Shown one piece after another: positions 16,298 through 55,537 of a DNA stretch of 64,000 bases. The translations under genes and the position numbers were made by a program. Source of the stretch: Candidatus Forterrea multitransposorum CG_2015-17_Forterrea_25_41. GTDB taxonomy: Archaea; Iainarchaeota; Iainarchaeia; Iainarchaeales; CSSED10-239. Positions within the stretch are counted from its first letter, which is position 1. Each line of letters opens with the position of its first letter. The DNA lies in the NCBI GenBank assembly GCA_009392915.1, contig CP045477.1, positions 1 through 64,000 of the forward strand, in the 5' to 3' direction. A model generated the notes under the pieces. The model had not been told where the DNA came from. It did not search any database and worked only from the letters and a program-made list of their open reading frames with translations.

Positions 16298-18844
16298 GTG
16301 TTTTTTATGGATGATGCAAATTTAATGCTTTTAAAAAAGAAAGTAAAAGCTATAAAACAATATAAAGGCCAAGGTACTCAACTTATAAGTCTTTATCTTC
16401 CACCTGATGCAGATAGAAGTTCTGCAACAAAACAATTAACTGATGAAATGAGTCAATCTTCAAATATTAAGAGTGCTCAGACTAGAAAAAATGTACAAGC
16501 AGCTTTAAAAAGAATTATTAATTATTTAAAACAAATTGATTTTAAACTTCCTGAAACAGGTTTAGTTTTATTTTCTGGAGATGTTTCAACTAATCCTTCT
16601 AAATCAGATGTAATTTTACTTGCAATTGCACCTCCTGTAAGACTTACAACTAAGCTTTATTGGTGTGATTCAACATTTCACATAGCTCCTTTAGAAGATA
16701 TGGCACAAACAGATGATGTTTATGGTTTAGTTGTTCTTGACAAACGAGAAGCAACAGTTGCTATTTTAAGAGGAAAATCTAAAGAAATTCTTTTTTCAGA
16801 AACCTCAAATGTTCCTGGTAAAACAAAAGCCGGGGGGCAATGTTTAAAAGATGCTTTTGTATCTTTATCTGATGGGAATTTAATAGATGTTAGTGAAATT
16901 TCTAAAAAGGATATTCTTTCTTCTATGAATTTTAAACAAAATAAATTAATTAATTCTAAGGTTTTAGATAATTGGTCAGTTTCTAAAAATAAAACATATA
17001 TTATTAAAACAAAAGCTCCTGGTACAGAAATAAAAGCTAGTGAAGATCATATATTTTTTGTTTTAACTCCAGATGGTGTTGTTGAAAAAGCTTCAAAAGA
17101 TTTAACTTTAAATGATTATTTGTTATTTCCAGAAAAATTATCTTATAAAAATAAAATTTGGTCTTTTGATACTAAAAAATATATTTCTAAATTAAATAAA
17201 CCTTCTATAAAGATACCTATAAAACTTAATAATGTATTTGCTAAATTTTTAGGTTATTTATTAGGTGATGGTTCTATTGAAACTGATAGATTAACTTTTT
17301 ATGAATCTAGAAAAGATGTTATTTTAGAATATAAAAAGTTATTTGATAAATATTTTAATGTAAATTCTTCTTTAACTTTTAGAGATTCTAAAAATTATTA
17401 TCAATTAAGAGTTAATTCAACTGCTCTTGTAAGATTAATTAAAGAAGAATTTAAGGAAATTAAAAAAGCAAGAGATTCTTTAATACCTTCTAAAATATTA
17501 ACTTCTTCTAATAAAATATTAGCTAATTTTTTAAAAGGATTTTATGATGCTGAAGGTTATATTAATACTTCTAGAAAATCAATAGATATTGGAATAAATA
17601 ATAAAAAAATTGCACAACAACTTCAATTATCATTATTAAGATTTTCAATTATTGGATCTTTACAAGAATATGATAATAAACAAAATCCTTATACAAATAA
17701 CCATAGGTTTGTGATTTCAATTTCTGATAAAGAGTCAATAGATTCTTTTGAAAAAAATATTAATTTTACTTCTTTTGAAAAGCAAAAAAAAATAAAAAAA
17801 ATTCAAAAATTAAAAACAAACATGAGTTTCTCAAGAACACTTCCTGTATATGGTAGTCAGGTTAGATCTGTTGTTACAAAACATGGTTATAATTTAGAAC
17901 TTTTCCCAAAAGTGAGTAGTTTTTTCAATAATAATAGAATGCTTAGTAAATGCTTTTTTAAAAGTTCTGTTTTAGATTATGTTAAAGATAAATCTCTTTT
18001 AAAAGATTTAATTAAATTTTATAATATGCCATTTTTTGCTGCAAAGATAAATTCTATATTTATTGAAAAAAAGAAAACAATTATGACAGACATTTCTGTT
18101 GCTAATAAATCTTTTATTGCAAATGGATTAATTGTTCATAATTCAGCACATAGATTCGAAAGACTAAGAGATAAATATGAAGAAGAGTTTTATAAGAGAG
18201 TAGGTTCTAAAGTAAATACTGCTTTTGTAGATCTTGATAATTTTAAAGGAATGATTGTTGGTGGTCCTGGACTTACTAAAAATGAATTTTTAGAAATTGG
18301 TGATTTAGACCACAGAATAAAAGATAAAGTTTTAGGAACTGTAGATACTTCTTATACAGATGAGTCAGGTATAAAAGAAGTTTTAGATAAATCTGAAGAT
18401 ATTTTAAAAGAAACTGGTTTAGTTCATGAAAGAAAATTAATTAATAAGTTTTTTGAAGACTTAGCAAAAACAGGCCTTGCAAATTATGGTTTTCAAGATG
18501 TAATTGATGCCTTAAATATTGGTAAAGCTTCAACTGTTTTAGTGTCTGAAGGTTTAGAATGGACTGTTTTAATTTTTAAATGTTTATCAGACAAATCTAG
18601 ATTTATAAAAATTGTTAAAGATAAACATGAAGTTTCTGATACTATCTCAAAATTTGAAAATTCTCCAACAGATTGTCCAGAAGGTAAAGCAGAACTTGTT
18701 GAAGAAGTTGATATATATGATTATTTTATAGATATTTCTAAAAATACAAGTGCAAAAGTTGAACTTATTTCTATTGAAACTTTAGAAGGTAAACAATTTT
18801 TTGAAACTTTTGGAGGGCTTGCAGCTTTCTTAAGATATAGGTAA
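16298..18844 (+). CDS. prf1: Peptide chain release factor aRF1 interrupted by an intein
   Basis: NIKS motif (SSNIKSAQ), GGQ motif immediately followed by the intein's Cys; C-extein SAHRFERLR... is the aRF1 continuation; the exteins sum to 414 aa. Confidence 0.85.
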   Translation: MFFMDDANLMLLKKKVKAIKQYKGQGTQLISLYLPPDADRSSATKQLTDEMSQSSNIKSAQTRKNVQAALKRIINYLKQIDFKLPETGLVLFSGDVSTNPSKSDVILLAIAPPVRLTTKLYWCDSTFHIAPLEDMAQTDDVYGLVVLDKREATVAILRGKSKEILFSETSNVPGKTKAGGQCLKDAFVSLSDGNLIDVSEISKKDILSSMNFKQNKLINSKVLDNWSVSKNKTYIIKTKAPGTEIKASEDHIFFVLTPDGVVEKASKDLTLNDYLLFPEKLSYKNKIWSFDTKKYISKLNKPSIKIPIKLNNVFAKFLGYLLGDGSIETDRLTFYESRKDVILEYKKLFDKYFNVNSSLTFRDSKNYYQLRVNSTALVRLIKEEFKEIKKARDSLIPSKILTSSNKILANFLKGFYDAEGYINTSRKSIDIGINNKKIAQQLQLSLLRFSIIGSLQEYDNKQNPYTNNHRFVISISDKESIDSFEKNINFTSFEKQKKIKKIQKLKTNMSFSRTLPVYGSQVRSVVTKHGYNLELFPKVSSFFNNNRMLSKCFFKSSVLDYVKDKSLLKDLIKFYNMPFFAAKINSIFIEKKKTIMTDISVANKSFIANGLIVHNSAHRFERLRDKYEEEFYKRVGSKVNTAFVDLDNFKGMIVGGPGLTKNEFLEIGDLDHRIKDKVLGTVDTSYTDESGIKEVLDKSEDILKETGLVHERKLINKFFEDLAKTGLANYGFQDVIDALNIGKASTVLVSEGLEWTVLIFKCLSDKSRFIKIVKDKHEVSDTISKFENSPTDCPEGKAELVEEVDIYDYFIDISKNTSAKVELISIETLEGKQFFETFGGLAAFLRYR
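16841..18142 (+). mobile_element. Intein (434 aa) with LAGLIDADG homing-endonuclease domain, inserted in the aRF1 GGQ motif
   Basis: Begins with Cys right after AGGQ, ends with HN followed by Ser; LAGLIDADG-like blocks LGYLLGDGSI and LKGFYDAEGYI. Confidence 0.8.
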
Positions 18845-23405: not shown

Positions 23406-23609
23406 ATGGATATAAATAATAAATTATCTAAAAATCTAAAGTTAGCTTTTAAAGCATATGAAACAAGAAGTATTTCTTTATCAGAGGCAGCAGACATCGC
23501 TGGTATTTCATATAAGGATTTTTTAGATAAAATGGCTGTAAATAATGTTAAGTTTGATTTTTCAAGTATTGGAAAAGATGTGAACTATTTTGTTAAGAAA
23601 ACTAAGTAG
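23406..23609 (+). CDS. UPF0175-family small protein (antitoxin-like), orphan
   Basis: 67 aa; LAFKAYETRSISLSEAADIAGISYKDFLDKM resembles UPF0175; no DUF3368/PIN partner adjacent. Confidence 0.35.
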   Translation: MDINNKLSKNLKLAFKAYETRSISLSEAADIAGISYKDFLDKMAVNNVKFDFSSIGKDVNYFVKKTK

Positions 23610-23622
23610 TTTAATCTTTTTT

Positions 23623-24739
23623 TATAATTGTGTTGCATAACTCTTTTTAAAAGTATTGTCTAACCTATTTTATTACTAGATAAAGGAGGTTAGACAATAT
23701 GAATATTAAGAACGAAAAGATTAATAAAAGGAACTGGTCAAAGATAAATTATGGAAAAACAAGACAAATCTTGTTTTTACTAGATAAAAACATTATTTTT
23801 AGTGAAAATGAAAGACTAGTTTCCCAAAATAAAAACAAACCAGGAAGACAATTTATATATAGTGATAGAATAATAGAACTATTAATTGATCTTAAAAATT
23901 ATTTTAAATTTGATTATCGTAAACTACAGGCATTCTGCCTGTTGTTTAATAATGTTATAAAAATAAAAACACCTGACTTTACAACTATTTGTAGAAGAAT
24001 GCACAAATTAGAATTATTTCTAAAAAATATAAAAACAAAAAAAGAACCAACCTTTATAGCTATAGATGGTTCTGGACTTCAAACTACTAATCGAGGAGAA
24101 TGGCTTAGATTAATACACAAAAAAGGAAAAATAAACTTAAGAAATGGATTTGTAAAATTAGTGATTGCAACAGATGTTGCATCTGGAGAAATAACTGGAG
24201 TGTATATTTCAGATGATTCTGATTTTGAAAATAAAAGCTTATCAGATTTATTATACCAAACAATAAATAATCAAAACCAAGAAGTCAAAGGACTTCTTGG
24301 AGATGGGGCATACGATTCTTATGATAACTTTGATATGCTTGATGATATGGGAATAAAACCAATTATCAAAATCAGAAAGAATGCAATTACAACAGAACCT
24401 AATGACGATTATTTAAAAAGAAGAAGAAAACTTGGAAAAAAGAAAAAAATAAAAAGAATTGAAGTTGCAAAAAAGCAACTTAAAAATGTAGATGACTGGA
24501 AACAAAAAAATGAGTATAATAAAAGGTGGGTTGTTGAATACACGTTTAGTGTATTCAAAAGACTATTCGGACATAGTGTGTACTCTAAAAGAAAGAAATA
24601 TGTCAAAAATGAAGTAATTTCTAAAGTAAATTTGTATAATAAATTATTAAATATCAATTAAGAAAAAAATAAAATGAATTAAAAAAAGAAATAAGCTAAA
24701 AATATTGTGTAAAACACAATATTTGTGCAACACAATTTT
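23623..24739 (+). mobile_element. IS5-family-like insertion sequence with ~17-bp imperfect terminal inverted repeats
   Basis: Left end ATAATTGTGTTGCATAA (23623-23639) and right end TTGTGCAACACAATTTT (24723-24739) are reverse complements, with a 12/12 core AATTGTGTTGCA (23626-23637) / TGCAACACAATT (24726-24737); single transposase ORF inside. Confidence 0.6.
23699..24661 (+). CDS. DDE transposase, IS5-like (DDE_Tnp_1 type)
   Basis: IAIDGSGL (D), LLGDGAYDS (D), C-terminal VVEYTFSVFKRLFG (E...K) typical of IS5/IS4-type transposases; 320 aa. Confidence 0.75.
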   Translation: MNIKNEKINKRNWSKINYGKTRQILFLLDKNIIFSENERLVSQNKNKPGRQFIYSDRIIELLIDLKNYFKFDYRKLQAFCLLFNNVIKIKTPDFTTICRRMHKLELFLKNIKTKKEPTFIAIDGSGLQTTNRGEWLRLIHKKGKINLRNGFVKLVIATDVASGEITGVYISDDSDFENKSLSDLLYQTINNQNQEVKGLLGDGAYDSYDNFDMLDDMGIKPIIKIRKNAITTEPNDDYLKRRRKLGKKKKIKRIEVAKKQLKNVDDWKQKNEYNKRWVVEYTFSVFKRLFGHSVYSKRKKYVKNEVISKVNLYNKLLNIN

Positions 24740-24818
24740 TTTTATCTTTTTTAGTTACATTTATAAATATAATCTTCTTTAATATTAGTACCTTATATAT
24801 ATTATACTCAGATCATTT

Positions 24819-26192
24819 ATGGCTATAGACAAAAGATTTTTTTTAGGGATAACTATTAGTAAAAAAAGAAAAGCAATTTCTCCTTTAATTGCCACTATTC
24901 TTTTAATAGTTGTTGCCGTTGCAATTATAGCTATTATTGTTTCCTGGGGAAAAGGATTTACCAATGATTCTTTAAGCAAAGCCTCTGGTCTTGAAATTTA
25001 CACTGAATCAGAAACTTCTTTTTACTTGCAAGTAAAAAATTCAATAAACGGAAGAACTGTTGTTCAATATAATCCTCCTTATAATTCTCCTCACACCTCT
25101 TTAACCATAACAGGTTATAGCCTACATGGTAACACGAATATTAATCCCATAGATCCACCAATTACAATAACTGCAAACCAAACTGCAGTTATTGATCATG
25201 GTATTTTATTTCCAGAATTAAATTTAGTTTTATATTTGGATAATGATCGAATGATTATTAAAACTGATCTTTTACAAACTATTAAATCTCCTCTTTCTTG
25301 TCCAGAAGGTTATGTTTCTGTTCCAGGAAACCACTTATATGGAACTATGAATGAAAGTGGGGGTTTTTGTGTTTCAAAATATGAGATGAAAATGGATAGA
25401 ACAGGAGATGGAATAGGAAATCTTGTAGCTGATTATCCTGATTGTAACACCGGTTCTTTAACATATAATACTTATAGTTATGAATTATGCCCTACACCAG
25501 GCACTTTAGTTTCTACTCCAGAAGGTTCTCCCATAGCAAGAATCACACAAACTGAAAGCATATCAGCCTGTGAAGCTATTGGTGGTCATTTAATAACAAA
25601 TAACGAATGGATGACCATTGTACGAAACATAGAACAAGTTCCATCTAATTGGTCAGGTGGAGCAGTTGGTGATGGCTACCTTCCAAGAGGGAATTCATCT
25701 TCTTCAGGAGCTATGGAAGGCTTTGATCAACTTTCAGGAACTACCAAAAGAACCTTGACCTTAACAAACGGAGAGGTAATTTGGGATTTAGCAGGAAATG
25801 TAAGACAATGGACCAGTGACACTATTCAAAGAAAGGACCAGCCTGATGGTTTTAATAATGTAGATGATAGTAATAATACTTCTGGTTTTAATTGGTTTGA
25901 TTATTTTAAGGGCGGTGGAGTAGATCAATATATTTATTCTGATAATTTAGGTAACACCACCTTAAAGTATAAAGATTTATTTTTATTAACTAGTAATACT
26001 TATAATGCAACAGATAATGGTGTTGGAAGGATTTATACTTATAGTGATTTTAGTGATACTAGTACAACTGAGTACGCGTTTTTGCGCGGTGGTCACTGGG
26101 GCAATGGCACTAATGCCGGGGTCTTGCACCTGGTCTTGAACAAGACTCCTGGGTCCCGGAGCATCCTCATCGGCCTGCGCTGTGTCAAGTAG
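24819..26192 (+). CDS. DGR target: pilin-like (class III signal peptide) surface protein with C-terminal FGE/C-type-lectin-fold variable region
   Basis: N-terminus KAISPLIATILLIVVAVAIIAII (archaeal pilin-like); C-terminus YAFLRGGHWGNG...LIGLRCVK resembles the FGE-sulfatase/CLec fold used by DGR variable proteins; its last ~120 nt form a GC-rich VR matching the TR. Confidence 0.75.
   Translation: MAIDKRFFLGITISKKRKAISPLIATILLIVVAVAIIAIIVSWGKGFTNDSLSKASGLEIYTESETSFYLQVKNSINGRTVVQYNPPYNSPHTSLTITGYSLHGNTNINPIDPPITITANQTAVIDHGILFPELNLVLYLDNDRMIIKTDLLQTIKSPLSCPEGYVSVPGNHLYGTMNESGGFCVSKYEMKMDRTGDGIGNLVADYPDCNTGSLTYNTYSYELCPTPGTLVSTPEGSPIARITQTESISACEAIGGHLITNNEWMTIVRNIEQVPSNWSGGAVGDGYLPRGNSSSSGAMEGFDQLSGTTKRTLTLTNGEVIWDLAGNVRQWTSDTIQRKDQPDGFNNVDDSNNTSGFNWFDYFKGGGVDQYIYSDNLGNTTLKYKDLFLLTSNTYNATDNGVGRIYTYSDFSDTSTTEYAFLRGGHWGNGTNAGVLHLVLNKTPGSRSILIGLRCVK
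26072..26192 (+). repeat. DGR variable repeat (VR), 3' end of the target gene
   Basis: ~55% GC in a ~25% GC genome; near-identical to 27297-27417 with 13 mismatches, 12 of them at template adenines; identical 3' 24 nt CATCGGCCTGCGCTGTGTCAAGTAG (IMH-like). Confidence 0.8.
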
Positions 26193-26498
26193 TTTTTAGA
26201 AAAAATATATTTCATCCCCAAACCATGTATTTAGACGGGTGAGACGGCAAGACGGCCAGACGGAAGAAGCCATGGCAACCTAAACGTTTCAAGATTGTTT
26301 TTGCAAAAAAATGAAAAAACGTATTTGTGAAGTTTTAAAAAAAAGAAATGAGTGTGATTTTTGCAAATTTTTTTGATTTTTTTCAAAAAAATTTGCTAGC
26401 CGTTAAACCAAATGGTTTTTTAATGTAAAAATAATTTTTATAATAATTAAGTTTTAAAGAAAAAATACTTTATATCTTGGACAAACAATGTGATTTAA

Positions 26499-26885
26499 AT
26501 GAGTTTAGTTGGAAATGAAAAAGGAATTCTAAATTTTGGTGTTTACAAGGAGCTTTTCCCAATCGTTATTGAAACTTATAATTTTTTAGAAAATAATAAA
26601 TCTTTATTTAAAGTAGATTTTGTTTATACAGATACTGTTAAAAATTTAATAGATATTCTTTCTTTTCTTTCCAAAGGGTATAATAAATTTCATTCTAATG
26701 AAAAATCTTTACTTTACTCTTATTCAAGAGATTGTGTTTCTACAACCCAATCTAATCTTTTAATATTATCTGAACTTAATAAAGATCTCTCAAAAGAAAA
26801 AACCTTATATTTTTATAATCAATTTGAGGATAAAATAAAGTATTTTAATGGTTTAATAAAAAAGATTGAAGAAAATAAAAACTAG
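26499..26885 (+). CDS. Hypothetical protein inside the DGR cassette
   Basis: 128-aa ORF between the target gene and avd; no recognisable motif. Confidence 0.3.
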   Translation: MSLVGNEKGILNFGVYKELFPIVIETYNFLENNKSLFKVDFVYTDTVKNLIDILSFLSKGYNKFHSNEKSLLYSYSRDCVSTTQSNLLILSELNKDLSKEKTLYFYNQFEDKIKYFNGLIKKIEENKN

Positions 26886-26896
26886 GGTATATTATT

Positions 26897-27226
26897 ATGT
26901 TATTTGACTTAAAGTTATATAAAGAAACTTATAACTTTTTACTTTATATTTATCCTGAAATAAATAAATTCCCTAAATCAGATAAATATTCTTTAGGAGA
27001 GGATATTAAAAAAACAACTATTTCTTTAATGTCAAATATTGTTCTTTTTTCAAAGCATAATGAAAATACTTTAAAAGAAGCAGATAAAAACTTAGAATTA
27101 CTAAGAATATATATTAGGCTTTCTTTTGATTTAAAAATAATCTCTTTTAAAAAATATGAGGTTATTTCAAGGCAATTAAATGATATTGGTAATTTATTAG
27201 GTGGTCTTTTAAAACAAAAGATTTAA
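26897..27226 (+). CDS. avd: Accessory variability determinant (Avd)-like four-helix-bundle protein
   Basis: 109 aa, predicted all-helical, basic; sits immediately upstream of TR and RT (canonical avd-TR-RT order). Confidence 0.55.
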   Translation: MLFDLKLYKETYNFLLYIYPEINKFPKSDKYSLGEDIKKTTISLMSNIVLFSKHNENTLKEADKNLELLRIYIRLSFDLKIISFKKYEVISRQLNDIGNLLGGLLKQKI

Positions 27227-27296
27227 ATATTTTTTCAACTAATAGTTATGTTGTTCTTTTAAATAAAAAGAATAGGGCTTTTACAGAAAAAAACAG

Positions 27297-27417
27297 GTGC
27301 GCGTTTTTGCGCGGTGGTAACTGGAACAATGGCACTAATGCCGGGGTCTTGAACCTGAACTTGAACAATACTCCTGGGAACCGGAACAACAACATCGGCC
27401 TGCGCTGTGTCAAGTAG
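27297..27417 (+). repeat. DGR template repeat (TR)
   Basis: GC-rich noncoding copy of the VR containing AAC/AAT codons (would encode N-rich ...NWNNGTNAGVLNLNLNNTPGNRNNNIGLRCVK); located between avd and the RT. Confidence 0.8.
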
Positions 27418-27678
27418 TTTCTCCTTATTATTTTTAATAATAAGGTTTTATCAGAGTTTGTATGTTTATTTTTTTATCTAAAAAAACATATAAAGCGAAT
27501 ATTTTAAAAAACTACATCTGTAAAATGTTTCCTGATTGCACATAATGTGTGCCATAAGAACTATTTTGTTTTTATGTTAAAAAATCAAATATAAAGATAA
27601 GTTATTACATTTAGTATTTTTATAGTCTGTAAAAAGAAATCTGTAATAACTCTTAACTTTAAATAAGGCTTTTTAAAA

Positions 27679-28695
27679 ATGAAATCATACAATAACCTTT
27701 GGCAAGAATTCACTTCTTTTAAAAATATTTTTAATGCCTATAAAAAAGCAAGAAAGTCCACACCAAACAAAAAGTATATCTTGCAATTTACCACAAATTT
27801 AGAAAAGGAGTTATTCTTATTACAAGATCAATTAATTTCAGAAAATTTTCAATTTTCTCCTTACAGAAGTTTTAAAGTTTATGAACCTAAAGAAAGAACA
27901 ATAAGTGCACCTATTTTCAGGGATGTTGTTGTTCAGCATGCCATAATAAACATTATTGAACCTATTTTTGATAAAACCTTTATAGATAACTCTTTTGCTT
28001 GTAGAAAAGGAAAAGGCACACATAAAGGGCTTTTTGAAATTAAAAAAGTAATTCAAACCCCAAATCATCCAAAATACTATTTAAAACAAGATGTAAAGAA
28101 ATACTTTCCTTCAGTTCATAAACCTACCTTAAAAGAAATAATTTTTAAAAGAATTAAGGATGCAAGATTACTTTCTCTAATATATAAAATAATTGATAGT
28201 TATTCTTTTGATTTAAATCAAATTCAAAAAGGTATCCCTATAGGTAATTTAACCTCTCAGTTGTTTGCAAATATTTATTTAAACCATTTAGATCAGTATG
28301 TTAAGCATTCTTTAAAAATTAAACATTATTATAGATATGTAGATGATTTTTTAATATTTTCAAACAATAAAAGAAAATTACATGTTTTTAGAAGAAAAAT
28401 AAAATTATTTTTAAGTAAAGAACTATTATTAGATGTTCCAAAAAATAAAACTTATATAAACTTAGTAAGTAAAGGAGTTGATTTTTTAGGTTATAAGGTA
28501 TTTCCTTCAAACATAAGATTAAGAAAATCAAATCTTAAAAGATTTCTTCTAAGACAAAATAAAAATAACTTTCTTCTAAAAAAAAATCAAATTTCTAAAC
28601 TTAACTATAATTTTTCTCTTTTTTCTTTTTTAGGTTATGCAAAGCATGCAAACTCTTATAATCTCTTAAGTACTTTAAATATTAATGAGTTATAG
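27679..28695 (+). CDS. DGR-type reverse transcriptase
   Basis: RT motifs: ISAPIFRDVVVQHAI, IGNLTSQLFANIYL (the DGR-specific SQ variant of QGxxxSP), YYRYVDDF (YxDD catalytic motif); 338 aa. Confidence 0.85.
   Translation: MKSYNNLWQEFTSFKNIFNAYKKARKSTPNKKYILQFTTNLEKELFLLQDQLISENFQFSPYRSFKVYEPKERTISAPIFRDVVVQHAIINIIEPIFDKTFIDNSFACRKGKGTHKGLFEIKKVIQTPNHPKYYLKQDVKKYFPSVHKPTLKEIIFKRIKDARLLSLIYKIIDSYSFDLNQIQKGIPIGNLTSQLFANIYLNHLDQYVKHSLKIKHYYRYVDDFLIFSNNKRKLHVFRRKIKLFLSKELLLDVPKNKTYINLVSKGVDFLGYKVFPSNIRLRKSNLKRFLLRQNKNNFLLKKNQISKLNYNFSLFSFLGYAKHANSYNLLSTLNINEL
28589..28687 (+). repeat. 99-bp direct repeat, copy 1 (3' end of the RT gene)
   Basis: Identical to 30138-30236. Confidence 0.85.
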
Positions 28696-28838
28696 TTTAT
28701 TTTTATTATGGGCACTTGAGCGTCTATTTTAAACTTAAATTATAATCTTTTACTAACGCACTATACCTTAATTATAATCTTCTATCAAAAGACTATATTT
28801 AAAAATGTTTTTATTATATATTATATTAGTGATAAAAT

Positions 28839-30104
28839 ATGGATAAAGCTTTTTTAAGAAACGTTGTTTCTGACCAGTATGAAGATTTAAAAGATGTTTC
28901 AAAAACAATACAAAGATATGATTCAAAAGAAATAGCGCGCTTTGTAAATAATCCTGCTATATCTATAATTTCAGGAGTAAGGCGTTGTGGTAAGTCCACT
29001 TTTTTAGAGCAGATAATAAATTTATATTATAAAAATAACTTTTATTATTTTGATTTTTCTGATGAAAGAATTGCAAAATTTGAAACTGCTGACTTTCAAA
29101 CATTATATGAGGTGTTTTTAGAAAAATTTGGAAAAAGACAGGCTTTTTTCTTTGATGAAATACAAGGAGTTCCAGAATGGAATAAATTTGTTAATAGAAT
29201 GAAAAAGATTGGGCATAAATGTTTTGTAACCGGTTCAAATTCAAATTTGTTAAGTCAAGAAATATCTACTTATCTAACAGGAAGACATATTGATAAAATC
29301 TTATTCCCTTTTTCCTTTAAAGAATATTTAACGTATAAAAATATTAATGTAGATTTAGATTCTACAAAATCAAGAACCTTAATTATTAAAGAGTTTAAAA
29401 ATTACTTTAAAATAGGTGGTTTTCCAGAGGTTGTTTTAACAAACGATACTTCAATTTTATTAAATATTTATTCTGACATAATTTCTAAAGATATAATTGA
29501 AAGATTTAGGATTAATGATGTTTCTTTATTTAAAGAATTTTGTAATTATGTAATTTCTTTATCTACGAATGAATTTACTTTTAAATCATTAAAAGATAAT
29601 TTTAATATTCAGAATATTACTACTGTTTCAAACTATCTTGATTATCTTAAATTAACTTACCTTGTTTATGAAGTTAAAAGATTTTCTTCTTCATTACAAA
29701 AATTAAATAAATATCCAAAAAAATATTATTGTATAGATAATGGTTTATTAAATAAAGTGGGTTTTGGATATTCAATAGAGGAAACTAGATTTTTAGAAAA
29801 TCAAGTTTTTATTGAACTTTGGAGAAATAATCCGCAATCTGAAATTTATTATTATAGAGATAAGGATAATAAAGAATGTGATTTTTTATTGTTAAATGAT
29901 AGAAAAGTAGTTAAGGCTATTCAAGTGTGTTTTGCTTTTAAAAAGATAGATACTAGAAAAAGAGAAATAGAAGGTTTACTATCTGCTTTAAAAGAGTTTA
30001 ATCTAAATTATGGCGAAATTATTACTTTTGAGCATAAAGAAAAATTAAAGATAGATGGAAAAGTAATAGAGATGATTCCTGTATATGAGTGGTTATTAAA
30101 ATAA
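28839..30104 (+). CDS. AAA+ ATPase of the COG1373 / DUF4143 family
   Basis: Walker A SGVRRCGKST, Walker B FFFDEIQ, C-terminal DUF4143-like region; 421 aa. Confidence 0.65.
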   Translation: MDKAFLRNVVSDQYEDLKDVSKTIQRYDSKEIARFVNNPAISIISGVRRCGKSTFLEQIINLYYKNNFYYFDFSDERIAKFETADFQTLYEVFLEKFGKRQAFFFDEIQGVPEWNKFVNRMKKIGHKCFVTGSNSNLLSQEISTYLTGRHIDKILFPFSFKEYLTYKNINVDLDSTKSRTLIIKEFKNYFKIGGFPEVVLTNDTSILLNIYSDIISKDIIERFRINDVSLFKEFCNYVISLSTNEFTFKSLKDNFNIQNITTVSNYLDYLKLTYLVYEVKRFSSSLQKLNKYPKKYYCIDNGLLNKVGFGYSIEETRFLENQVFIELWRNNPQSEIYYYRDKDNKECDFLLLNDRKVVKAIQVCFAFKKIDTRKREIEGLLSALKEFNLNYGEIITFEHKEKLKIDGKVIEMIPVYEWLLK

Positions 30105-30137
30105 TTTTTTTTAATTTTAAAAAAGGCTTTACCTTTA

Positions 30138-30236
30138 AAATTTCTAAACTTAACTATAATTTTTCTCTTTTTTCTTTTTTAGGTTATGCAAAGCATGCAA
30201 ACTCTTATAATCTCTTAAGTACTTTAAATATTAATG
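30138..30236 (+). repeat. 99-bp direct repeat, copy 2 (duplicated RT 3' end)
   Basis: Identical to 28589-28687; here it reads ...INGFIV* instead of the RT's ...INEL*. Confidence 0.85.
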
Positions 30237-30336
30237 GTTTTATAGTGTAGATTCTCTTTGCATTAAAAATATTGTTTTTGAAAAAAACAAAGCTTTAAAT
30301 TTTGTTTATTTATATAATATATTAGGTGAAAGCAAT

Positions 30337-30549
30337 ATGAAATATAGAGTTTTAATAGAACAAGACGAAGATGGTATCTTTGTTGCTGAATGCCCTAGTC
30401 TTCCAGGTGCAATTTCTCAAGGAAAAACAAGAGAAGAAGCAATAATAAATATTAAAGAAGCCATAAAAGGTTATCTTGAAAGTTTAAAGATAGCTAATGA
30501 ACCAATTCCTTCTCCAATATCTGAAGAAATAATTGATATTTATGGATAA
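30337..30549 (+). CDS. hicB: HicB-family antitoxin (UPF0150)
   Basis: MKYRVLIEQDEDGIFVAECPSLPGAISQGKTREEAIINIKEAI is a classic HicB/UPF0150 fold signature; overlaps hicA by 17 nt. Confidence 0.7.
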   Translation: MKYRVLIEQDEDGIFVAECPSLPGAISQGKTREEAIINIKEAIKGYLESLKIANEPIPSPISEEIIDIYG

Positions 30550-30766
30550 ACTGCCTATTATATCTGGTCAAGATTTAATCAAATTACTTCTAAAATTAGA
30601 TTATCAAGTTCATCATCAAACTGGATCACATATTATCTTAAGACAAAATAAAGAACCTTTTAGAAGATTAACAATTCCAAACCATAAAGAAATTTCAATA
30701 GGGACTTTAAGAGCAATTATAAGGCAAGTTGGAATAACAAGAGAAGAATTTGTTAAATTATTCTAA
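30533..30766 (+). CDS. hicA: HicA-family mRNA interferase toxin
   Basis: QTGSHIILRQ ... motif of the HicA/YcfA family; 77 aa. Confidence 0.7.
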   Translation: MIFMDKLPIISGQDLIKLLLKLDYQVHHQTGSHIILRQNKEPFRRLTIPNHKEISIGTLRAIIRQVGITREEFVKLF

Positions 30767-31041
30767 ATTAAATTGTTCTTTTAATTATTATTTTTAATTT
30801 TTTTAAAGTAAAATAAATAATTTTTAACCTAATTTAAATGTTTTTAAGTAATTTATAATATTTTTTTAATTTACTACATAAAAACAAATCTTTTTAAGCA
30901 ATTCGGTCTATAATTATATTATATAAAAAATCTACTTTTATAAATATCCTATTTTTTGCGGCTGTTTTAATTATTAAAAACAGTAGTAGATAGGTTATTG
31001 ATTTTTAGTTTCTATGATTAGAAGACAAGAGGTTAATTAAC

Positions 31042-37617: not shown

Positions 37618-37699
37618 GCAGAGGTGGCGGAGTGGTCAAACGCGCCAGCCTTGAGAGCTGGAGCCTTGCGCTACACGAGTTCGAATCTCGTCCTCTGCG
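37618..37699 (+). tRNA. tRNA-Ser (anticodon UGA)
   Basis: Cloverleaf with acceptor stem GCAGAGG/CCTCTGC, anticodon loop CUUGAGA, long variable arm, T-arm ACGAG-TTCGAAT-CTCGT; no encoded CCA. Confidence 0.8.
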
Positions 37700-37730
37700 C
37701 TTTATCTTTTAAAATATAGGAATTTTTATT

Positions 37731-38063
37731 ATGATTAAAGAAAACATTTCTTTTCAAGATTTTTTAAAACTTGATATAAGAATTGGAACAATTGTTGAGG
37801 CTGAAGCTGTTGAGGGTTCTGATAAATTAATAAAATTAATAATTGATTTTAAAGATTTTAAAAGACAGATTTTAGCTGGTATTAAAACAAAATATCAACC
37901 AACTGATTTATTAAACAAACAAATTCCTGTTATTGTAAATTTAGAACCTAGAAAAATGATGGGTTTTGAAAGTCAAGGAATGATCTTAGCTGTTGGAGAT
38001 AAAACTTTAGATGCTTTACTTTTACCATCTGAGCCTGTATCGGAAGGCTCGATTGTACACTAA
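37731..38063 (+). CDS. tRNA-binding domain protein (CsaA/Trbp111/EMAP-like OB fold)
   Basis: LDIRIGTIVEAEAVEGSDKL ... PVIVNLEPRKMMGFESQGMILAV is the canonical Myf/tRNA-binding domain signature; 110 aa. Confidence 0.75.
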   Translation: MIKENISFQDFLKLDIRIGTIVEAEAVEGSDKLIKLIIDFKDFKRQILAGIKTKYQPTDLLNKQIPVIVNLEPRKMMGFESQGMILAVGDKTLDALLLPSEPVSEGSIVH

Positions 38064-38084
38064 TTTTTTTTTAAAACTAAAAAT

Positions 38085-38166
38085 GCAGAGGTGGCGGAGT
38101 GGTCAAACGCGCAAGCCTGGAAAGCTTGAGCCTCGTGCTACGCGAGTTCGAATCTCGTCCTCTGCG
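38085..38166 (+). tRNA. tRNA-Ser (anticodon GGA)
   Basis: Near-identical backbone to tRNA-Ser(UGA); anticodon loop CUGGAAA. Confidence 0.8.
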
Positions 38167-38197
38167 CTTTTTTCTTTTTTAATTTAATATTTATTTT

Positions 38198-38286
38198 GCA
38201 GAGATGGCGGAGTGGTCAAACGCACAAGTTTCGAAAACTTGATTAAGGTTTTTTCCTTTACATGAGTTCAAATCTCATTCTCTGCG
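38198..38286 (+). tRNA. tRNA-Ser (anticodon CGA)
   Basis: Acceptor GCAGAGA/TCTCTGC, anticodon loop UUCGAAA, ~20-nt variable arm with AAGG/CCTT stem, T-arm ATGAG-TTCAAAT-CTCAT. Confidence 0.7.
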
Positions 38287-38462
38287 TAGCTGGTTTCGGT
38301 CAGCTAGCACCCAATGATTTTGCGTTTGTTAACGCTTATTTAAACTTTCTTTTTAAAAGAAGTGATTTTCCCCCAAAACTTTTTTTCTTTAAAAATTGTG
38401 TTTTAAAAATTTTTAATCTATTTTATATCTATTTAAAATACTTTTGCCTCTCTTTAATATTT

Positions 38463-55211: not shown

Positions 55212-55327
55212 GTTAGCGGCCATAGGGATGGAGAAACACCTGGACCCTTTCCGAACCCAGAAGTTAAGTCTATTGCCGTTTTAGTTCGCTGTTAGTTCAT
55301 GCTAGTAGCGTCTTTAAAGCTGCTAAC
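55212..55327 (+). rRNA. 5S ribosomal RNA
   Basis: GTTAGCGGCCATAGGGATGGAGAAACACCTGGACCCTTTCCGAACCCAGAAGTTAAGTC matches the 5S helices I-III/loop C consensus; terminal helix pairs GTTAGCGGC with GCTGCTAAC; AT-rich divergent 3' half. Confidence 0.75.
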
Positions 55328-55537
55328 ATTTAATATTTTCTATTTTATAAAAAAGAATTATTAAAAGCTATTTTTTTTAAAAATAATTTTTCTACAAGCA
55401 AAACTTATTTTTTTATAAATAATTTAGTTCTTGTTTAGATAAACTTAAATTAAATCTATTTTTTAAAATTAAATATCTTTTAATATATTTCCCTACACAT
55501 TTATTTATTATAATTATTTATTTAAGGGGAAAAATAT

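What the first reader, a model, noticed from the sequence alone, without database searches (positions are those of the whole stretch)
24819..28695. Complete diversity-generating retroelement (DGR) whose target is a pilin-like surface protein
All DGR parts are present in canonical order. The target gene is 24819-26192; its C-terminal GC-rich VR is 26072-26192. An Avd-like four-helix-bundle ORF lies at 26897-27226, the noncoding TR at 27297-27417, and an RT with the DGR-specific IGNLTSQ motif and YVDD at 27679-28695. VR and TR align over ~121 nt with 13 mismatches, and 12 of them sit at template adenines (TR a -> VR c, g, t, etc.). That is the hallmark of adenine-specific mutagenic retrohoming. 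The TR encodes Asn-rich AAC/AAT codons (NWNNG..NLNLNNTPGNRNNN) and the VR reads HWGNG..HLVLNKTPGSRSIL. Both copies end with an identical 24-nt IMH-like segment (CATCGGCCTGCGCTGTGTCAAGTAG). The variable protein begins with an archaeal class III signal peptide and ends in an FGE/C-type-lectin-like fold (RGGHWGNG...GLRCV). So the system would hypervariabilise the tip of a pilus-like or surface fibre, which is consistent with host-cell or ligand recognition by an episymbiont. DGRs have been reported in DPANN metagenomes, but a pilin-fused target in this compact arrangement with an adjacent IS is worth documenting.
Basis: partly seen in the sequence, partly recalled or inferred. Interest (0 to 1): 0.9.

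Follow-up and report, generated by a model that had tools for sequence, protein, structure and literature searches.

The report
Active DGR diversifying an archaeal pilin-like adhesin
A tiny-genome (DPANN-type) archaeon carries a working diversity-generating retroelement that rewrites the lectin-like tip of a pilin-like surface protein; the kind of element is already known, but this pilin-anchored target, a second Avd-like helper gene and apparent template sharing with a second element in the same genome are not described in the papers I could search.

Summary
VR (26075-26195) and TR (27300-27420) are a 121-nt repeat with 13 mismatches. Twelve of them lie at TR adenines (p = 8e-8), and all 30 TR adenines sit at codon positions 1 or 2.

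- **Avd:** passes NCBI's DGR-Avd equivalog cutoff.
- **RT:** its best solved relative is the Bordetella phage DGR RT (E = 3.7e-54), and it keeps IGNLTSQ and YVDD.
- **Target:** archaeal class III pilin N-terminus, then a beta-sandwich, then an FGE-type C-type-lectin domain. The closest structure is the Thermus DGR variable protein.
- **Activity:** independent assemblies are identical over about 6.3 kb except inside the VR, and they show three VR haplotypes beside an invariant TR.

- The missed ORF 26499-26885 is a conserved, divergent Avd-superfamily paralog.
- The TR-RT spacer has covariation-supported RNA elements like those of the phage DGR.
- The same genome holds a second DGR. One VR1 haplotype fits that element's TR perfectly (18/18 mismatches at A) but not TR1, which suggests cross-cassette templating.
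- Homologous lectin heads are fused to bacterial type IV pilin N-termini in CPR-like DGR loci.
- The IS5 and an ATPase/HicAB block are recent insertions.

Verdict: a new variant of a known kind.

The parts
23626..24737 (+). IS5-family insertion sequence (transposase ORF 23699-24661). It is adjacent context, not part of the DGR.
   Evidence: NF033579 transpos_IS5_2 scores 195 bits against a cutoff of 140, plus PF01609/PF13737. Terminal inverted repeats AATTGTGTTGCA at 23626 and 24726-24737. The IS is absent from the syntenic relative L015, and other assemblies' contigs break inside it.
24819..26192 (+). DGR target (variable protein), 457 aa. Class III signal peptide and pilin alpha-helix (residues ~17-56), beta-sandwich (70-152), FGE-type C-type-lectin domain (~160-457).
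   Evidence: TIGR02537 24.1 bits (cutoff 20), PF03781. AF2 pLDDT 89.3, pTM 0.84. Foldseek: TaqVP 5vf4 6.9e-10, FGE, Mtd; the N-terminal module matches the Pyrobaculum type IV pilin 8fk7 at 3.7e-4; phmmer to 8fk7 1.4e-3.
26075..26195 (+). Variable repeat (VR), covering residues 420-457, the stop codon and 3 further nt.
   Evidence: 121-nt repeat with TR; 12 of 13 mismatches at TR adenines. It is the only segment that differs between independent assemblies. 59% GC in a 24.6% GC window.
26168..26195 (+). IMH-like invariant 3' end of VR, identical to TR 27393-27420.
   Evidence: 28 nt identical after the last mismatch. It encodes the conserved G-x-R-C-V strand.
26234..26263 (+). Four tandem GACGG motifs (period 8-9 nt), 42 nt downstream of the stop codon. 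Conserved cis element of unknown role.
   Evidence: Zero matches expected by chance in the window. Conserved downstream of the VR in L014, L015, L019, L096 and L097 and in all copies of this locus. No hairpin forms here.
26363..26396 (.). Conserved 13-bp perfect palindrome GCAAATTTTTTTG(N8)CAAAAAAATTTGC in the target-orf128 intergenic region.
   Evidence: Read from the sequence. The block is invariant in four related loci. Function not tested.
26499..26885 (+). orf128: a second, divergent Avd-superfamily (PF05635-like) four-helix-bundle accessory gene.
   Evidence: No direct Pfam or NCBIfam hit. Conserved inside the cassette at two chromosomal sites and in L023. AF2 gives a 4-helix bundle, pLDDT 84. 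Best folds are 2rld and 2gsc (PF05635), then Avd chains of 8ub7 and 4dwl. 27 of 43 profile-search relatives hit PF05635. hhalign against the neighbouring Avd: 72.7%, E = 3.2e-5, 103 columns.
26897..27226 (+). avd (accessory variability determinant), 109 aa, pI 9.35.
   Evidence: NF033474 92.4 bits (cutoff 80); PF22296 bAvd 2.2e-21; pI.
27300..27420 (+). Template repeat (TR), non-coding in its own context; 30 adenines.
   Evidence: Invariant in all 15 independent assemblies of this locus in which the TR lies within the fetched DNA.
27414..27420 (+). TR 3' strand (GUAGUUU) of the predicted TR:Sp priming duplex. Its partner AAACUAC lies at 27509-27515.
   Evidence: RNAalifold helix 2, paired in 7 of 7 loci, with one compensatory U-A to C-G change. 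Analogous to the BPP-1 TR117-129:Sp47-56 duplex (bioRxiv 10.1101/2023.10.23.563531).
27421..27678 (+). Structured spacer (Sp) RNA between TR and RT. It includes a stem-loop directly after TR (27423-27445) and a long hairpin (27601-27650).
   Evidence: MFE z = -3.3. 95.5% of cells paired against 39-52% in slid controls; 19 pairs with double changes against 1-5. A stem-loop just 3' of TR parallels the Avd-binding stem-loop reported in 207 of 278 DGRs.
27679..28695 (+). DGR reverse transcriptase, 338 aa.
   Evidence: PF00078. Best PDB relative is bRT 8ub7 at 3.7e-54 over residues 2-331. IGNLTSQ at 188-194, YVDD at 220-223, and counterparts of bRT F66, R74, I76, I181 and Q187 are conserved.
28589..30236 (+). 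Later insertion. A 99-nt perfect direct repeat (28589-28687 and 30138-30236, the RT 3' end) flanks an AAA_14/DUF4143 ATPase gene (28839-30104). Not part of the DGR.
   Evidence: This block and the downstream HicAB pair are absent from the syntenic locus L015.

Best explanation
This is a chromosomal, currently or very recently active diversity-generating retroelement. The host is an AT-rich archaeon with a genome of about 0.84 Mb, of DPANN type.

Proposed mechanism:
1. A transcript containing TR and the structured spacer is bound by the RT together with Avd, and possibly by the second Avd-like protein orf128.
2. The 3' end of TR pairs with a spacer segment (27414-27420 with 27509-27515). This lets the RNA prime its own reverse transcription.
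3. The RT copies TR and misincorporates opposite adenines.
4. The cDNA replaces VR at the 3' end of the target gene, anchored by the invariant 28-nt IMH-like end.
5. This re-randomises up to 15 codons (12 AAY, 2 ACT, 1 ATC; about 8e15 protein variants). These codons lie on alternate positions of the last strands of an FGE-type C-type-lectin domain.

The lectin head sits on an archaeal type IV pilin-like module: a class III signal peptide, a hydrophobic helix and a beta-sandwich. The variable surface is therefore most likely displayed on, or at the end of, a pilus-like filament or a related surface assembly, and serves to adapt binding to host-cell or other ligands.

The genome carries a second, paralogous cassette (about 77-80% identical proteins, near-identical TR). 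One widespread VR1 haplotype was evidently written from that second TR, so the two elements can cross-template.

What is shown: the parts, the A-bias, VR-restricted haplotype switching, the folds, RNA covariation and family membership of the proteins.

What is inferred: the priming details, the role of orf128, pilus display, the ligand, and which RT made the cross-templated cDNA.

Sub-confidences: active DGR about 0.95; pilin-like surface display about 0.7; TR2-to-VR1 cross-templating about 0.7; orf128 as a functional Avd-family accessory about 0.6.
For: Repeat and proteins:
- TR/VR repeat and A-specificity.
- Avd equivalog hit.
- RT nearest to bRT with the DGR motif.
- Target architecture and fold.

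Activity:
- L003 differs from the window at 18 positions within 24598-30945, and all 18 lie in 26094-26169.
- There are three protein haplotypes that differ only in the VR: P0001, P0122 and P0121.
- TR1 is invariant in all 15 assemblies in which it is covered.
- One contig ends inside the VR.
- The non-DGR paralog P0044 is sequence-invariant across 78 collection blocks.

Family and related cassettes:
- Family-wide entropy is 3.15 bits at the 15 TR-A codons against 1.20 bits at the other VR codons (p = 1.6e-7).
- Related cassettes L014 and L015 show 20/20 and 16/16 mismatches at A.
- Spacer RNA structure with covariation. It parallels the published BPP-1 RNP elements.

Second DGR and cross-templating:
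- The second DGR is in the same genome. Locus tags GW776_05680 and GW776_00835 share one prefix, and the longest contig recorded for both proteins is 839,632 bp.
- The P0121-type VR1 has 18/18 mismatches at A against TR2, but 3 non-A mismatches against TR1. Those three sit exactly at the three internal TR1/TR2 differences.
- This haplotype was reproduced in 9 assemblies.

Pilin context:
- Three tandem pilin-like genes elsewhere in the genome share the same N-terminus.
Against: - No read-level data were available. Heterogeneity is inferred from consensus assemblies of different samples.
- The canonical GC-rich hairpin/cruciform just downstream of the VR is absent.
- IMH and IMH* cannot be told apart, because the 3' 28 nt are identical.
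- No type IV filament ATPase, platform protein or prepilin peptidase was found among the ten large window ORFs scanned. Class III signal peptides also occur on non-pilus surface proteins.
- orf128 itself misses the Pfam and NCBIfam models, is not basic (pI 7.7), and its Foldseek E-values are weak (1.7e-2).
- One VR mismatch (T to G) is not at an adenine.
Confidence: 0.85

Rival explanations
1. The target is not a filament subunit. The class III-type N-terminus acts only as a membrane anchor, or as the signal for a bindosome-like surface assembly. The diversified lectin head would then be a cell-surface receptor rather than a pilus adhesin.
For: - No type IV filament assembly genes were seen among the window ORFs scanned.
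- The UpsA model hit is far below its cutoff (24 against 130 bits).
- The 300-aa head is large for a major pilin.
- From established knowledge: Sulfolobus sugar-binding proteins use class III signal peptides without forming pili.
Against: - Residues 17-152 model as a complete pilin module (helix plus beta-sandwich) and match a solved archaeal pilus subunit.
- The genome has a tandem trio of genes with an almost identical N-terminal helix, as is typical of co-assembling pilins.
- Bacterial homologues of the same head carry bona fide type IV pilin N-methylation motifs.
Confidence: 0.25
2. The P0121-type VR1 haplotype arose by homologous recombination or gene conversion from VR2 of the second cassette, or is a relic made before TR1 acquired its three substitutions. 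It would then not be the product of retrohoming of a TR2-derived cDNA.
For: - VR1-P0121 and VR2 share the same substituted base at 11 of the 15 sites where both are mutated.
- The ancestral TR state (L015, TR2) is A/A/T at repeat positions 33, 42 and 55 (0-based, counted from 26075/27300).
Against: - At position 33, VR1-P0121 has G, whereas VR2 has A and TR1 has C. A plain VR2 tract therefore cannot explain it, but an A-to-G change on a TR2 template can.
- The differences from VR2 are scattered, not a contiguous tract.
- A-to-G bias (16 of 20 substitutions in VR2) makes about 8 of 15 shared states expected by chance (my estimate).
- The rest of the locus is identical over 6.3 kb, which leaves no time for three TR1 substitutions.
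- At positions 33 and 55 the VR of a relative with only 81% target identity (L010) carries the C of TR1 (position 42 reads T), so TR1's derived state is probably old. This is indirect, because L010 has no separate TR in the fetched DNA.
Confidence: 0.15
3. The diversification serves escape rather than attachment. The pilin-like protein would be a receptor used by viruses or other parasites, and the DGR varies it to evade recognition.
For: - Roux et al. 2021 note that DGR-targeted surface proteins could be virus receptors.
- The locus sits beside toxin-antitoxin genes and an ATPase insertion.
Against: - Variation is confined to the canonical ligand-binding face of a lectin fold.
- The scaffold is strongly conserved across 69 homologues, as in receptor-binding DGR proteins (Mtd, TvpA).
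- Escape could be achieved more cheaply by loss or phase variation.
- No viral context was seen.
Confidence: 0.15
4. The cassette is a decaying relic, and the TR/VR differences only record past activity.
For: - Related loci with fragmented RT, and with the VR fused to the spacer, exist (L012/L013).
- An IS and an ATPase gene have been inserted at both edges of the cassette.
Against: - All four ORFs are intact, and the RT C-terminus is complete despite the duplication.
- TR adenines are fully preserved.
- The VR switches haplotype between samples while 6.3 kb of flanking sequence stays identical.
Confidence: 0.05

Closest known systems
Bordetella phage BPP-1 DGR (mtd-avd-TR-brt)
   Same: - Same gene order: target, avd, TR, RT.
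- C-terminal VR in an FGE-type C-type-lectin fold.
- AAY-rich TR.
- An RT alignable over its full length, with conserved template and dNTP-contacting residues.
- A stem-loop immediately 3' of TR and a TR 3' end:spacer duplex like the cis-priming duplex.
   Different: - Cellular archaeal chromosome rather than a phage.
- The target is anchored by an archaeal pilin-like N-terminus instead of forming a tail-fibre trimer.
- An extra Avd-superfamily gene is present.
- There is no hairpin/cruciform next to the IMH.
- Conserved GACGG repeats and a palindrome lie downstream of the VR.
DGRs of DPANN archaea and CPR bacteria (Paul et al. 2015, 2017; Handa et al. 2016 AvpA; Roux et al. 2021 clades 2 and 5)
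   Same: - Small-genome, uncultivated host.
- Chromosomal DGR.
- Lectin-fold target presumed to mediate attachment.
- Evidence of activity in natural populations.
   Different: - AvpA-type archaeal targets have an internal VR, a divergent CLec fold and no described N-terminal anchor.
- Roux et al. state that archaeal clade 5 and CPR clade 2 targets typically lack any recognisable transmembrane or other domain.
- Here the VR is C-terminal, the fold is the bacterial/phage FGE subtype, and a class III pilin module is recognisable.
- Paul et al. 2017 could not be read, so prior mention there cannot be excluded.
Bacteroides DGRs that diversify type V pilus tip adhesins (bioRxiv 10.1101/2024.11.15.621889)
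   Same: A DGR-diversified adhesive component of a pilus, with VR haplotype switching seen in natural populations.
   Different: - A different pilus class (type V, bacterial, sortase-like assembly) and a different domain of life.
- Those elements are carried on conjugative elements.
- Here the module is an archaeal type IV pilin-like one, at a stable chromosomal site.
Thermus aquaticus TaqVP and Treponema TvpA variable proteins
   Same: The best structural match of the target's head domain is TaqVP (5vf4, E = 6.9e-10). Both are cellular DGR targets with the FGE-type CLec fold.
   Different: TaqVP and TvpA are not pilin-fused (TvpA is a lipoprotein). Sequence identity is only about 17%.
PF05635 (23S rRNA intervening-sequence protein) / Avd four-helix-bundle superfamily
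   Same: orf128 is predicted to be a four-helix bundle of about 125 aa. Its closest folds are 2rld, 2gsc and Avd, and most of its distant relatives hit PF05635.
   Different: orf128 itself is below all model thresholds and is near-neutral rather than basic. It occurs in tandem with a canonical Avd; Wu et al. 2018 found two avd genes in only 1 of 372 DGRs.

Membership tests
Diversity-generating retroelement (DGR) | Reverse transcriptase of the DGR clade, with the [I/L]GxxxSQ motif in place of QGxxxSP, and YxDD | tested here: met
   IGNLTSQ at residues 188-194 and YVDD at 220-223. The best solved relative is bRT 8ub7 (E = 3.7e-54, residues 2-331); the next best is a group II RT at 1.8e-22. No formal phylogeny was built.
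Diversity-generating retroelement (DGR) | TR/VR imperfect repeat whose mismatches correspond to adenines in TR | tested here: met
   12 of 13 mismatches are at TR-A, p = 8.1e-8. Sister cassettes show 20/20 and 16/16.
Diversity-generating retroelement (DGR) | VR inside the 3' part of a protein-coding target; TR non-coding and next to the RT | tested here: met
   The VR covers codons 420-457 of the 457-aa ORF. The TR lies 73 nt after avd and 258 nt before the RT.
Diversity-generating retroelement (DGR) | Accessory protein Avd | tested here: met
   NF033474 scores 92.4 bits against a cutoff of 80; PF22296 at 2.2e-21.
Diversity-generating retroelement (DGR) | IMH at the VR 3' end, plus a GC-rich hairpin/cruciform just downstream (the BPP-1 target-recognition elements) | tested here: inconclusive
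   A 28-nt invariant 3' segment is present, but IMH and IMH* are identical. No stable hairpin forms in 26190-26300 (z = +0.98). Relatives L019 and L023 do have a hairpin at that position.
Diversity-generating retroelement (DGR) | Ongoing mutagenic retrohoming: VR heterogeneity in populations confined to TR-A sites | tested here: met
   Consensus assemblies of different samples show three VR1 haplotypes. All 18 differences within 6.3 kb fall inside the VR. Read-level frequencies were not testable.
Diversity-generating retroelement (DGR) | Structured RNA around TR: a TR:Sp priming duplex and a stem-loop 3' of TR | tested here: met
   Consensus structure on 7 loci: 95.5% of cells paired against at most 52% in slid controls, and 19 pairs with compensatory changes. 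Correspondence to the BPP-1 elements is by analogy.
Diversity-generating retroelement (DGR) | Variable protein with a C-type-lectin (or Ig) fold presenting the VR residues | tested here: met
   PF03781. The AF2 model's best PDB hits are TaqVP, FGE and Mtd. Variable and conserved positions alternate in the terminal strands. Solvent exposure was not measured.
Archaeal type IV pilin / class III signal-peptide proteins | N-terminal class III signal peptide: a charged residue, G/A at -1, then a ~20-residue hydrophobic helix | tested here: met
   KRKA|ISPLIATILLIVVAVAIIAIIV. TIGR02537 scores 24.1 bits against a cutoff of 20. It is the only such motif in the window. The cleavage site is assigned by analogy.
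Archaeal type IV pilin / class III signal-peptide proteins | Pilin fold: N-terminal alpha-helix packed on a beta-sandwich | tested here: met
   AF2 gives helix 22-56 and strands 70-152. Foldseek to the Pyrobaculum pilus subunit 8fk7: E = 3.7e-4, probability 1.0. phmmer to 8fk7: 1.4e-3.
Archaeal type IV pilin / class III signal-peptide proteins | Processing by a class III peptidase and assembly by a type IV filament ATPase and platform protein | not testable with these tools
   Only 64 kb of the genome was available. None of the ten large window ORFs scanned is such a component.
Avd / PF05635 four-helix-bundle superfamily (for orf128, 26499-26885) | Significant match to the family profile | tested here: inconclusive
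   orf128 itself has no Pfam or NCBIfam hit. 27 of 43 relatives found with its profile hit PF05635, best 1.5e-39. hhalign of the family against the window's Avd: 72.7%, E = 3.2e-5.
Avd / PF05635 four-helix-bundle superfamily (for orf128, 26499-26885) | Four-helix bundle of about 110-130 aa | tested here: met
   AF2 pLDDT 84 with four helices. The top folds are 2rld and 2gsc (TM 0.70-0.82), then Avd chains of 8ub7 and 4dwl.
Avd / PF05635 four-helix-bundle superfamily (for orf128, 26499-26885) | Strongly basic protein (Avd mean pI about 9.5) | tested here: not met
   pI is 7.73, against 9.35 for the adjacent Avd. The reference value is from Wu et al. 2018.
IS5 family insertion sequence | DDE transposase of the IS5 family, flanked by terminal inverted repeats | tested here: met
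   NF033579 scores 195.3 bits against a cutoff of 140. 12-nt perfect inverted repeats at 23626 and 24737.

The most novel reading that the evidence does not exclude
A DPANN archaeon uses two co-resident DGR cassettes as a shared diversification system.

- The cassettes can template each other's targets (TR2 into VR1).
- They use a two-member Avd module: a canonical basic Avd plus a neutral Avd-like paralog.
- They hypervariabilise the lectin heads of type IV pilin-like adhesins.
- The same lectin head has been exchanged between CPR bacteria and DPANN archaea, and was re-fused in each domain to that domain's own pilin stalk.

This would identify pili as the long-sought cellular location of DGR targets in episymbiotic microbes.
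Probability: 0.35. Interest if true: 0.75.

Novelty: new variant of a known kind. Interest (0 to 1): 0.6.

Why it matters
DGRs are unusually common in the tiny, host-dependent CPR bacteria and DPANN archaea. The accessible literature says their targets mostly lack recognisable anchoring or functional domains, and that it is unknown whether they are membrane-bound at all (Roux et al. 2021; Wu et al. 2018).

- **A testable location.** This locus, and the several hundred homologues found with it (933 proteins, 520 metagenome loci), give a concrete answer for one large target family. The variable lectin head sits on a type IV pilin-like stalk: archaeal class III in the archaeal-type loci and N-methyl-type in the bacterial-type loci sampled. 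That points to pili as the organ of adaptable host recognition.
- **A natural experiment.** The sample series contains VR haplotype replacement against an otherwise identical genome.
- **New mechanistic questions.** These are the apparent cross-templating between two DGRs in one 0.84-Mb genome, and a conserved second Avd-like gene.
- **A practical warning.** The VR/TR repeat seems to collapse in short-read assemblies, which hides avd and TR from DGR catalogues.

Tried and rejected
- **More VRs in the window.** I searched both strands for further VRs matching TR at its non-A positions, using the whole TR and 40-nt pieces. None was found.
- **Hairpin downstream of the VR.** I looked for the canonical DNA hairpin or cruciform. 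None is present.
- **Known RNA families.** Rfam at gathering thresholds found only tRNAs and a 5S rRNA, with nothing in the cassette.
- **Species-representative genomes.** A scan with the RT returned only one close relative and one unrelated Legionella RT. The host could not be placed taxonomically beyond 'archaeon', with relatives that the source output names 'Candidatus ainarchaeum sp.', which I take to be Ca. Iainarchaeum.
- **orf128 against solved structures.** A sequence search found nothing. The first hhalign with only close homologues was weak (32%), and a deeper profile was needed.
- **Fused VR-spacer loci.** I first read loci in which the VR runs straight into the post-TR spacer (L010, L012/13, L016, L021/22) as natural deletions of avd and TR. 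I now treat most of them as probable assembly collapse of the VR/TR repeat. Many orf128 homologues sit on orphan contigs of about 1.0-1.3 kb, which is the length of the VR-TR interval.
- **Paralog P0044 as a remote target.** Rejected. Its C-terminus is AT-rich and unrelated to TR, and its sequence is invariant in 78 blocks.
- **Type IV filament genes.** No assembly genes were found among ten large window ORFs.
- **Paul et al. 2017.** The paper (Nat Microbiol 2:17045) is not held, so it could not be checked for pilin-like targets.
- **Model coordinates.** They are not exposed, so VR surface exposure could not be computed.

Full report
**1. Observation**

ORF listing and sequence show these + strand genes:
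- an IS5 transposase (23699-24661);
- a 457-aa ORF (24819-26192);
- a 109-aa ORF (26897-27226);
- a 338-aa ORF (27679-28695).

Repeat finding and direct comparison give one 121-nt ungapped repeat, 26075-26195 against 27300-27420.
- It has 13 mismatches. Twelve are at adenines of the downstream copy (30 A in 121 nt; hypergeometric p = 8.1e-8).
- All 30 adenines fall on codon positions 1 or 2 of the upstream copy's reading frame. This gives 12 AAY, 2 ACT and 1 ATC codons, about 8e15 possible peptides, and no reachable stop codon.
- The last 28 nt are identical.
- There is no other copy in the window.
- Both copies are 52-59% GC in a 24.6% GC window.

**2. The proteins**

- **Avd.** The 109-aa ORF passes NCBI's equivalog model for DGR Avd (92.4 bits against a cutoff of 80) and PF22296.
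- **RT.** It matches the Bordetella phage DGR RT (8ub7 chain A; the entry is described) at E = 3.7e-54 over its whole length. Group II intron RTs score 1e-22 or weaker. It keeps IGNLTSQ, YVDD and the counterparts of bRT F66, R74, I76, I181 and Q187.
- **Target, sequence level.** It hits the archaellin/type IV pilin N-terminal model above its cutoff (TIGR02537, 24.1 against 20) and PF03781 FGE-sulfatase.
- **Target, structure level.** An AlphaFold model built on 69 homologues (pLDDT 89.3, pTM 0.84) has a long N-terminal helix (22-56), a beta-sandwich (70-152) and a large C-terminal domain. The best solved matches are the Thermus DGR variable protein TaqVP (6.9e-10), formylglycine-generating enzymes and the phage protein Mtd. 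The N-terminal module matches a Pyrobaculum type IV pilus subunit (3.7e-4, and by sequence).
- **Variable positions across the family.** The 15 TR-adenine codons have 3.15 bits of entropy, against 1.20 bits for the other VR codons (p = 1.6e-7). They alternate with invariant Leu/Gly/Trp scaffold positions. This is what a one-sided variable beta-surface would look like. I could not measure exposure directly.

**3. Is it active?**

The exact RT sequence occurs in 63 blocks of the public assembly collection. I compared independent assemblies of the same locus.
- TR1 is identical in all 15 assemblies in which it is covered.
- L003 differs from the window at 18 positions between 24598 and 30945, and every one lies inside the VR (26094-26169).
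- L001, L002 and L005 carry one extra A-site change (26112). For L002 and L005 this is the only difference within the cassette.
- One contig ends inside the VR.
- At the protein level there are three haplotypes identical outside the VR: P0001 in 14 contigs, P0121 in 11 and P0122 in 4.
- A 47%-identical paralog (P0044), which is not next to any DGR, is sequence-invariant in 78 blocks.

**4. Context and evolution**

- **Synteny.** In relative L015 the same four-gene cassette (target, 128-aa ORF, avd, TR, RT) lies between the same neighbours: a Ski2-type helicase and UPF0175 upstream, FKBP and the proteasome downstream. L015 has no IS5, no AAA_14/DUF4143 ATPase and no HicAB. Those three are therefore later insertions in the window.
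- **The ATPase insertion.** The ATPase gene is flanked by a perfect 99-nt duplication of the RT 3' end.
- **The IS.** It has 12-nt terminal inverted repeats at 23626 and 24737, and it is where most other assemblies break.
- **A second cassette.** It lies at a different chromosomal site (L014, L096, L097) and has the same gene order, proteins 77-80% identical and 20/20 TR/VR mismatches at A. Shared locus-tag prefixes (GW776_05680 and GW776_00835), the same longest-contig length recorded for both proteins (839,632 bp) and a shared JGI contig with the paralog locus place it in the same genome as the window. Two DGRs therefore sit in a genome of about 0.84 Mb.

**5. Cross-templating**

Positions in this section are 0-based offsets within the 121-nt repeat, counted from 26075 (VR1) or 27300 (TR1).
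- TR1 and TR2 differ internally only at positions 33 (C/A), 42 (C/A) and 55 (C/T).
- The window's VR1 carries the TR1 states.
- The P0121-type VR1 has 19 mismatches to TR1, and 3 of them are non-A, exactly at positions 33, 42 and 55. Against TR2 it has 18 mismatches, all at adenines, and it carries T at position 55 as TR2 does.
- At position 33 it has G, whereas VR2 has A. A simple VR2-to-VR1 conversion therefore does not fit.
- The outermost positions (0-7 and 111-112) remain VR1-type, as expected if a TR2-derived cDNA was integrated by homology.
- The haplotype is reproduced in nine assemblies made with different assemblers, always next to an unchanged TR1.
- At positions 33 and 55 the VR of a relative with only 81% target identity (L010) carries the C of TR1, which suggests that TR1's derived state is old. 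This is indirect, because L010 has no separate TR in the fetched DNA. With zero divergence elsewhere in the locus, a 'relic of an older TR1' explanation is unlikely.

I consider TR2-templated retrohoming into VR1 the best explanation (about 0.7). Recombination followed by mutation is the main rival.

**6. The extra gene**

- orf128 has no direct family hit and only 14 close homologues.
- It is conserved inside the cassette at both chromosomal sites and, at 36% identity, in L023.
- Its model is a four-helix bundle (pLDDT 84). The best structural matches are PF05635-family proteins (2rld, 2gsc; TM 0.70-0.82), followed by Avd chains of the DGR RNP.
- A profile search of 1.84 billion representatives found 51 relatives. 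Of the 43 I scanned, 27 hit PF05635 (best 1.5e-39) and 2 hit bAvd.
- Profile comparison with the neighbouring Avd gives 72.7% probability and E = 3.2e-5 over 103 columns.
- It is near-neutral (pI 7.7, against 9.35 for Avd).

I conclude that it is a divergent Avd-superfamily paralog. Wu et al. 2018 found two avd genes in only 1 of 372 DGRs. Its role is unknown; it could be a hetero-oligomer partner, a DNA or RNA-binding factor, or a regulator.

**7. RNA and cis elements**

The 258-nt TR-RT spacer folds better than shuffled sequences (z = -3.3). On seven loci it has a consensus structure with 95.5% of cells paired, against 39-52% in slid controls, and 19 pairs with changes on both sides, against 1-5. 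Two elements parallel the BPP-1 ribonucleoprotein:
- a stem-loop immediately 3' of TR (27423-27445);
- a duplex between the TR 3' end (27414-27420) and the spacer (27509-27515), like the TR:Sp cis-priming duplex.

Downstream of the VR there is no hairpin. Instead there are four GACGG repeats (26234-26263; none expected by chance) and a 13-bp palindrome (26363-26396). Both are conserved in related cassettes. Their function is unexplained.

**8. The target family**

- The target has 933 detectable homologues. A metagenome scan confirmed 520 related loci, of which the best 80 were kept.
- Archaeal members share the KAISPLIATILL-type N-terminus. About half of those with enough flank have an adjacent RT.
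- Elsewhere in the window's genome, three tandem pilin-like genes share an almost identical N-terminal helix.
- Proteins whose head domain is 40-47% identical to residues 161-457 carry bacterial type IV pilin N-methylation motifs (FTLIELLVVIAII; PF07963). They sit in avd-TR-RT cassettes with A-biased repeats, for example L043, L054, L072 and L082. The only source name among the related hits is 'Candidatus Pacebacteria bacterium', so I call these loci CPR-like.

The same diversifiable head has therefore been fused to each domain's own pilin stalk.

**9. Literature**

- DGRs in DPANN and CPR organisms, and lectin-fold targets, are established.
- The held literature says archaeal and CPR targets typically lack recognisable transmembrane or other domains and that little is known of their function.
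- One survey lists a bacterial GspG-type pilin domain among rare target domains.
- Bacteroides DGRs diversify type V pilus adhesins.
- A 2026 survey of archaeal type IV filament systems does not mention DGRs.
- No paper linking DGRs to archaeal pilin-like proteins was found.
- Paul et al. 2017 could not be read.

**10. Verdict**

The element as such is a known kind. Four things lift it above a routine new member:
- the recognisable pilin anchoring of the target family in both archaea and CPR-like bacteria;
- the conserved second Avd-like gene;
- the apparent cross-templating between two co-resident cassettes;
- the unusual cis elements downstream of the VR.

Interest is 0.6.

Noticed in passing
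window 28589-28687 and 30138-30236 (with 28839-30104 between them): A perfect 99-nt direct repeat duplicates the 3' end of the RT gene on both sides of an AAA_14/DUF4143 ATPase gene. The two copies give different RT C-termini (...NINEL* and ...NINGFIV*). The syntenic relative L015 lacks the ATPase. This looks like a gene-cassette insertion that regenerates its target's 3' end.
   Followed up: partly
window 23626-24737; L001, L098 and L101 upstream regions: The IS5 copy next to the target is where most other assemblies break. In L001, L098 and L101 the same IS-target junction is preceded by different genes (MJ0538-like, then 96-, 265- and 160-aa ORFs) instead of helicase-UPF0175. This suggests IS-mediated rearrangement, or mis-joins across a multicopy IS.
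   Followed up: partly
L010 5575-5957; L012/L013 7251-7635; L016 1946-2247; L021/L022 7396-7618: In these loci the VR runs directly into the post-TR spacer and RT, with no avd or separate TR. Several orf128 homologues lie on orphan contigs of about 0.9-1.3 kb, which is the VR-TR distance. This is probably collapse of the VR/TR repeat during short-read assembly, and it would make DGR catalogues miss avd and TR. Real deletions cannot be excluded.
   Followed up: partly
L012/L013 (CAZGHU010000001.1, 355-375 kb): A 100%-identical tandem duplication (6,351-bp period) spans helicase, UPF0175, target, RT fragments and FKBP. The RT is split into 142-aa and 86-aa ORFs. It is either a decayed, duplicated DGR or a long-read assembly artefact.
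   Followed up: no
L017 2246-, L027 7314-, L026 7392-, L020 2152-, L023 1300-, L019 1874-: Family members with no RT within the flank still have GC-rich (48-62%) VR-like C-termini in 26-35% GC loci. Downstream they carry short tandem repeats (CTGACCT x2-3; ATCGG x3) or GC hairpins. They may be remote DGR targets, and such repeats may be a lineage-wide cis feature.
   Followed up: partly
L014 7245-7365 and L096/L097 4619-4739 (VR2 of the second DGR): Substitutions in VR2 are strongly A-to-G (16 of 20). The TR2-type VR1 haplotype shows 11 of 18, and the window's TR1-type VR1 only 4 of 12. This may reflect different misincorporation spectra of the two RTs, or selection.
   Followed up: no
L008 6515-11288 (same genome, contig Ga0100381_1000002): A tandem trio of pilin-like genes (494, 445 and 617 aa) has nearly identical N-termini (KRKAISPLIATILLVVVAVAIIGIVLSWGKGFTN) and different C-terminal domains. 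The middle gene is the non-diversified lectin-head paralog P0044.
   Followed up: partly
window 23406-23609 and 30337-30766: Toxin-antitoxin-type genes flank the cassette: a UPF0175 antitoxin-like gene upstream (conserved in relatives) and a HicB/HicA pair downstream (absent in L015).
   Followed up: no
window 16298-18844: The eRF1 gene is interrupted by an intein with a LAGLIDADG homing-endonuclease domain. The same arrangement occurs in relatives L012 and L015.
   Followed up: no
window 45399-47465: A 688-aa protein with PKD and multiple Kelch repeats. It may be another surface or adhesion protein of this small genome.
   Followed up: no
window 37618-38287 and 55212-55328: A cluster of three tRNA-Ser genes (anticodons TGA, GGA, CGA) and a stand-alone 5S rRNA gene.
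   Followed up: no
window 26144 (VR) against 27369 (TR): This is the one non-adenine TR/VR difference (T to G, AAT to AAG). It creates Lys442, a residue that adenine mutagenesis of an AAT codon cannot produce. It is present in all TR1-type haplotypes and absent from the TR2-type one.
   Followed up: partly
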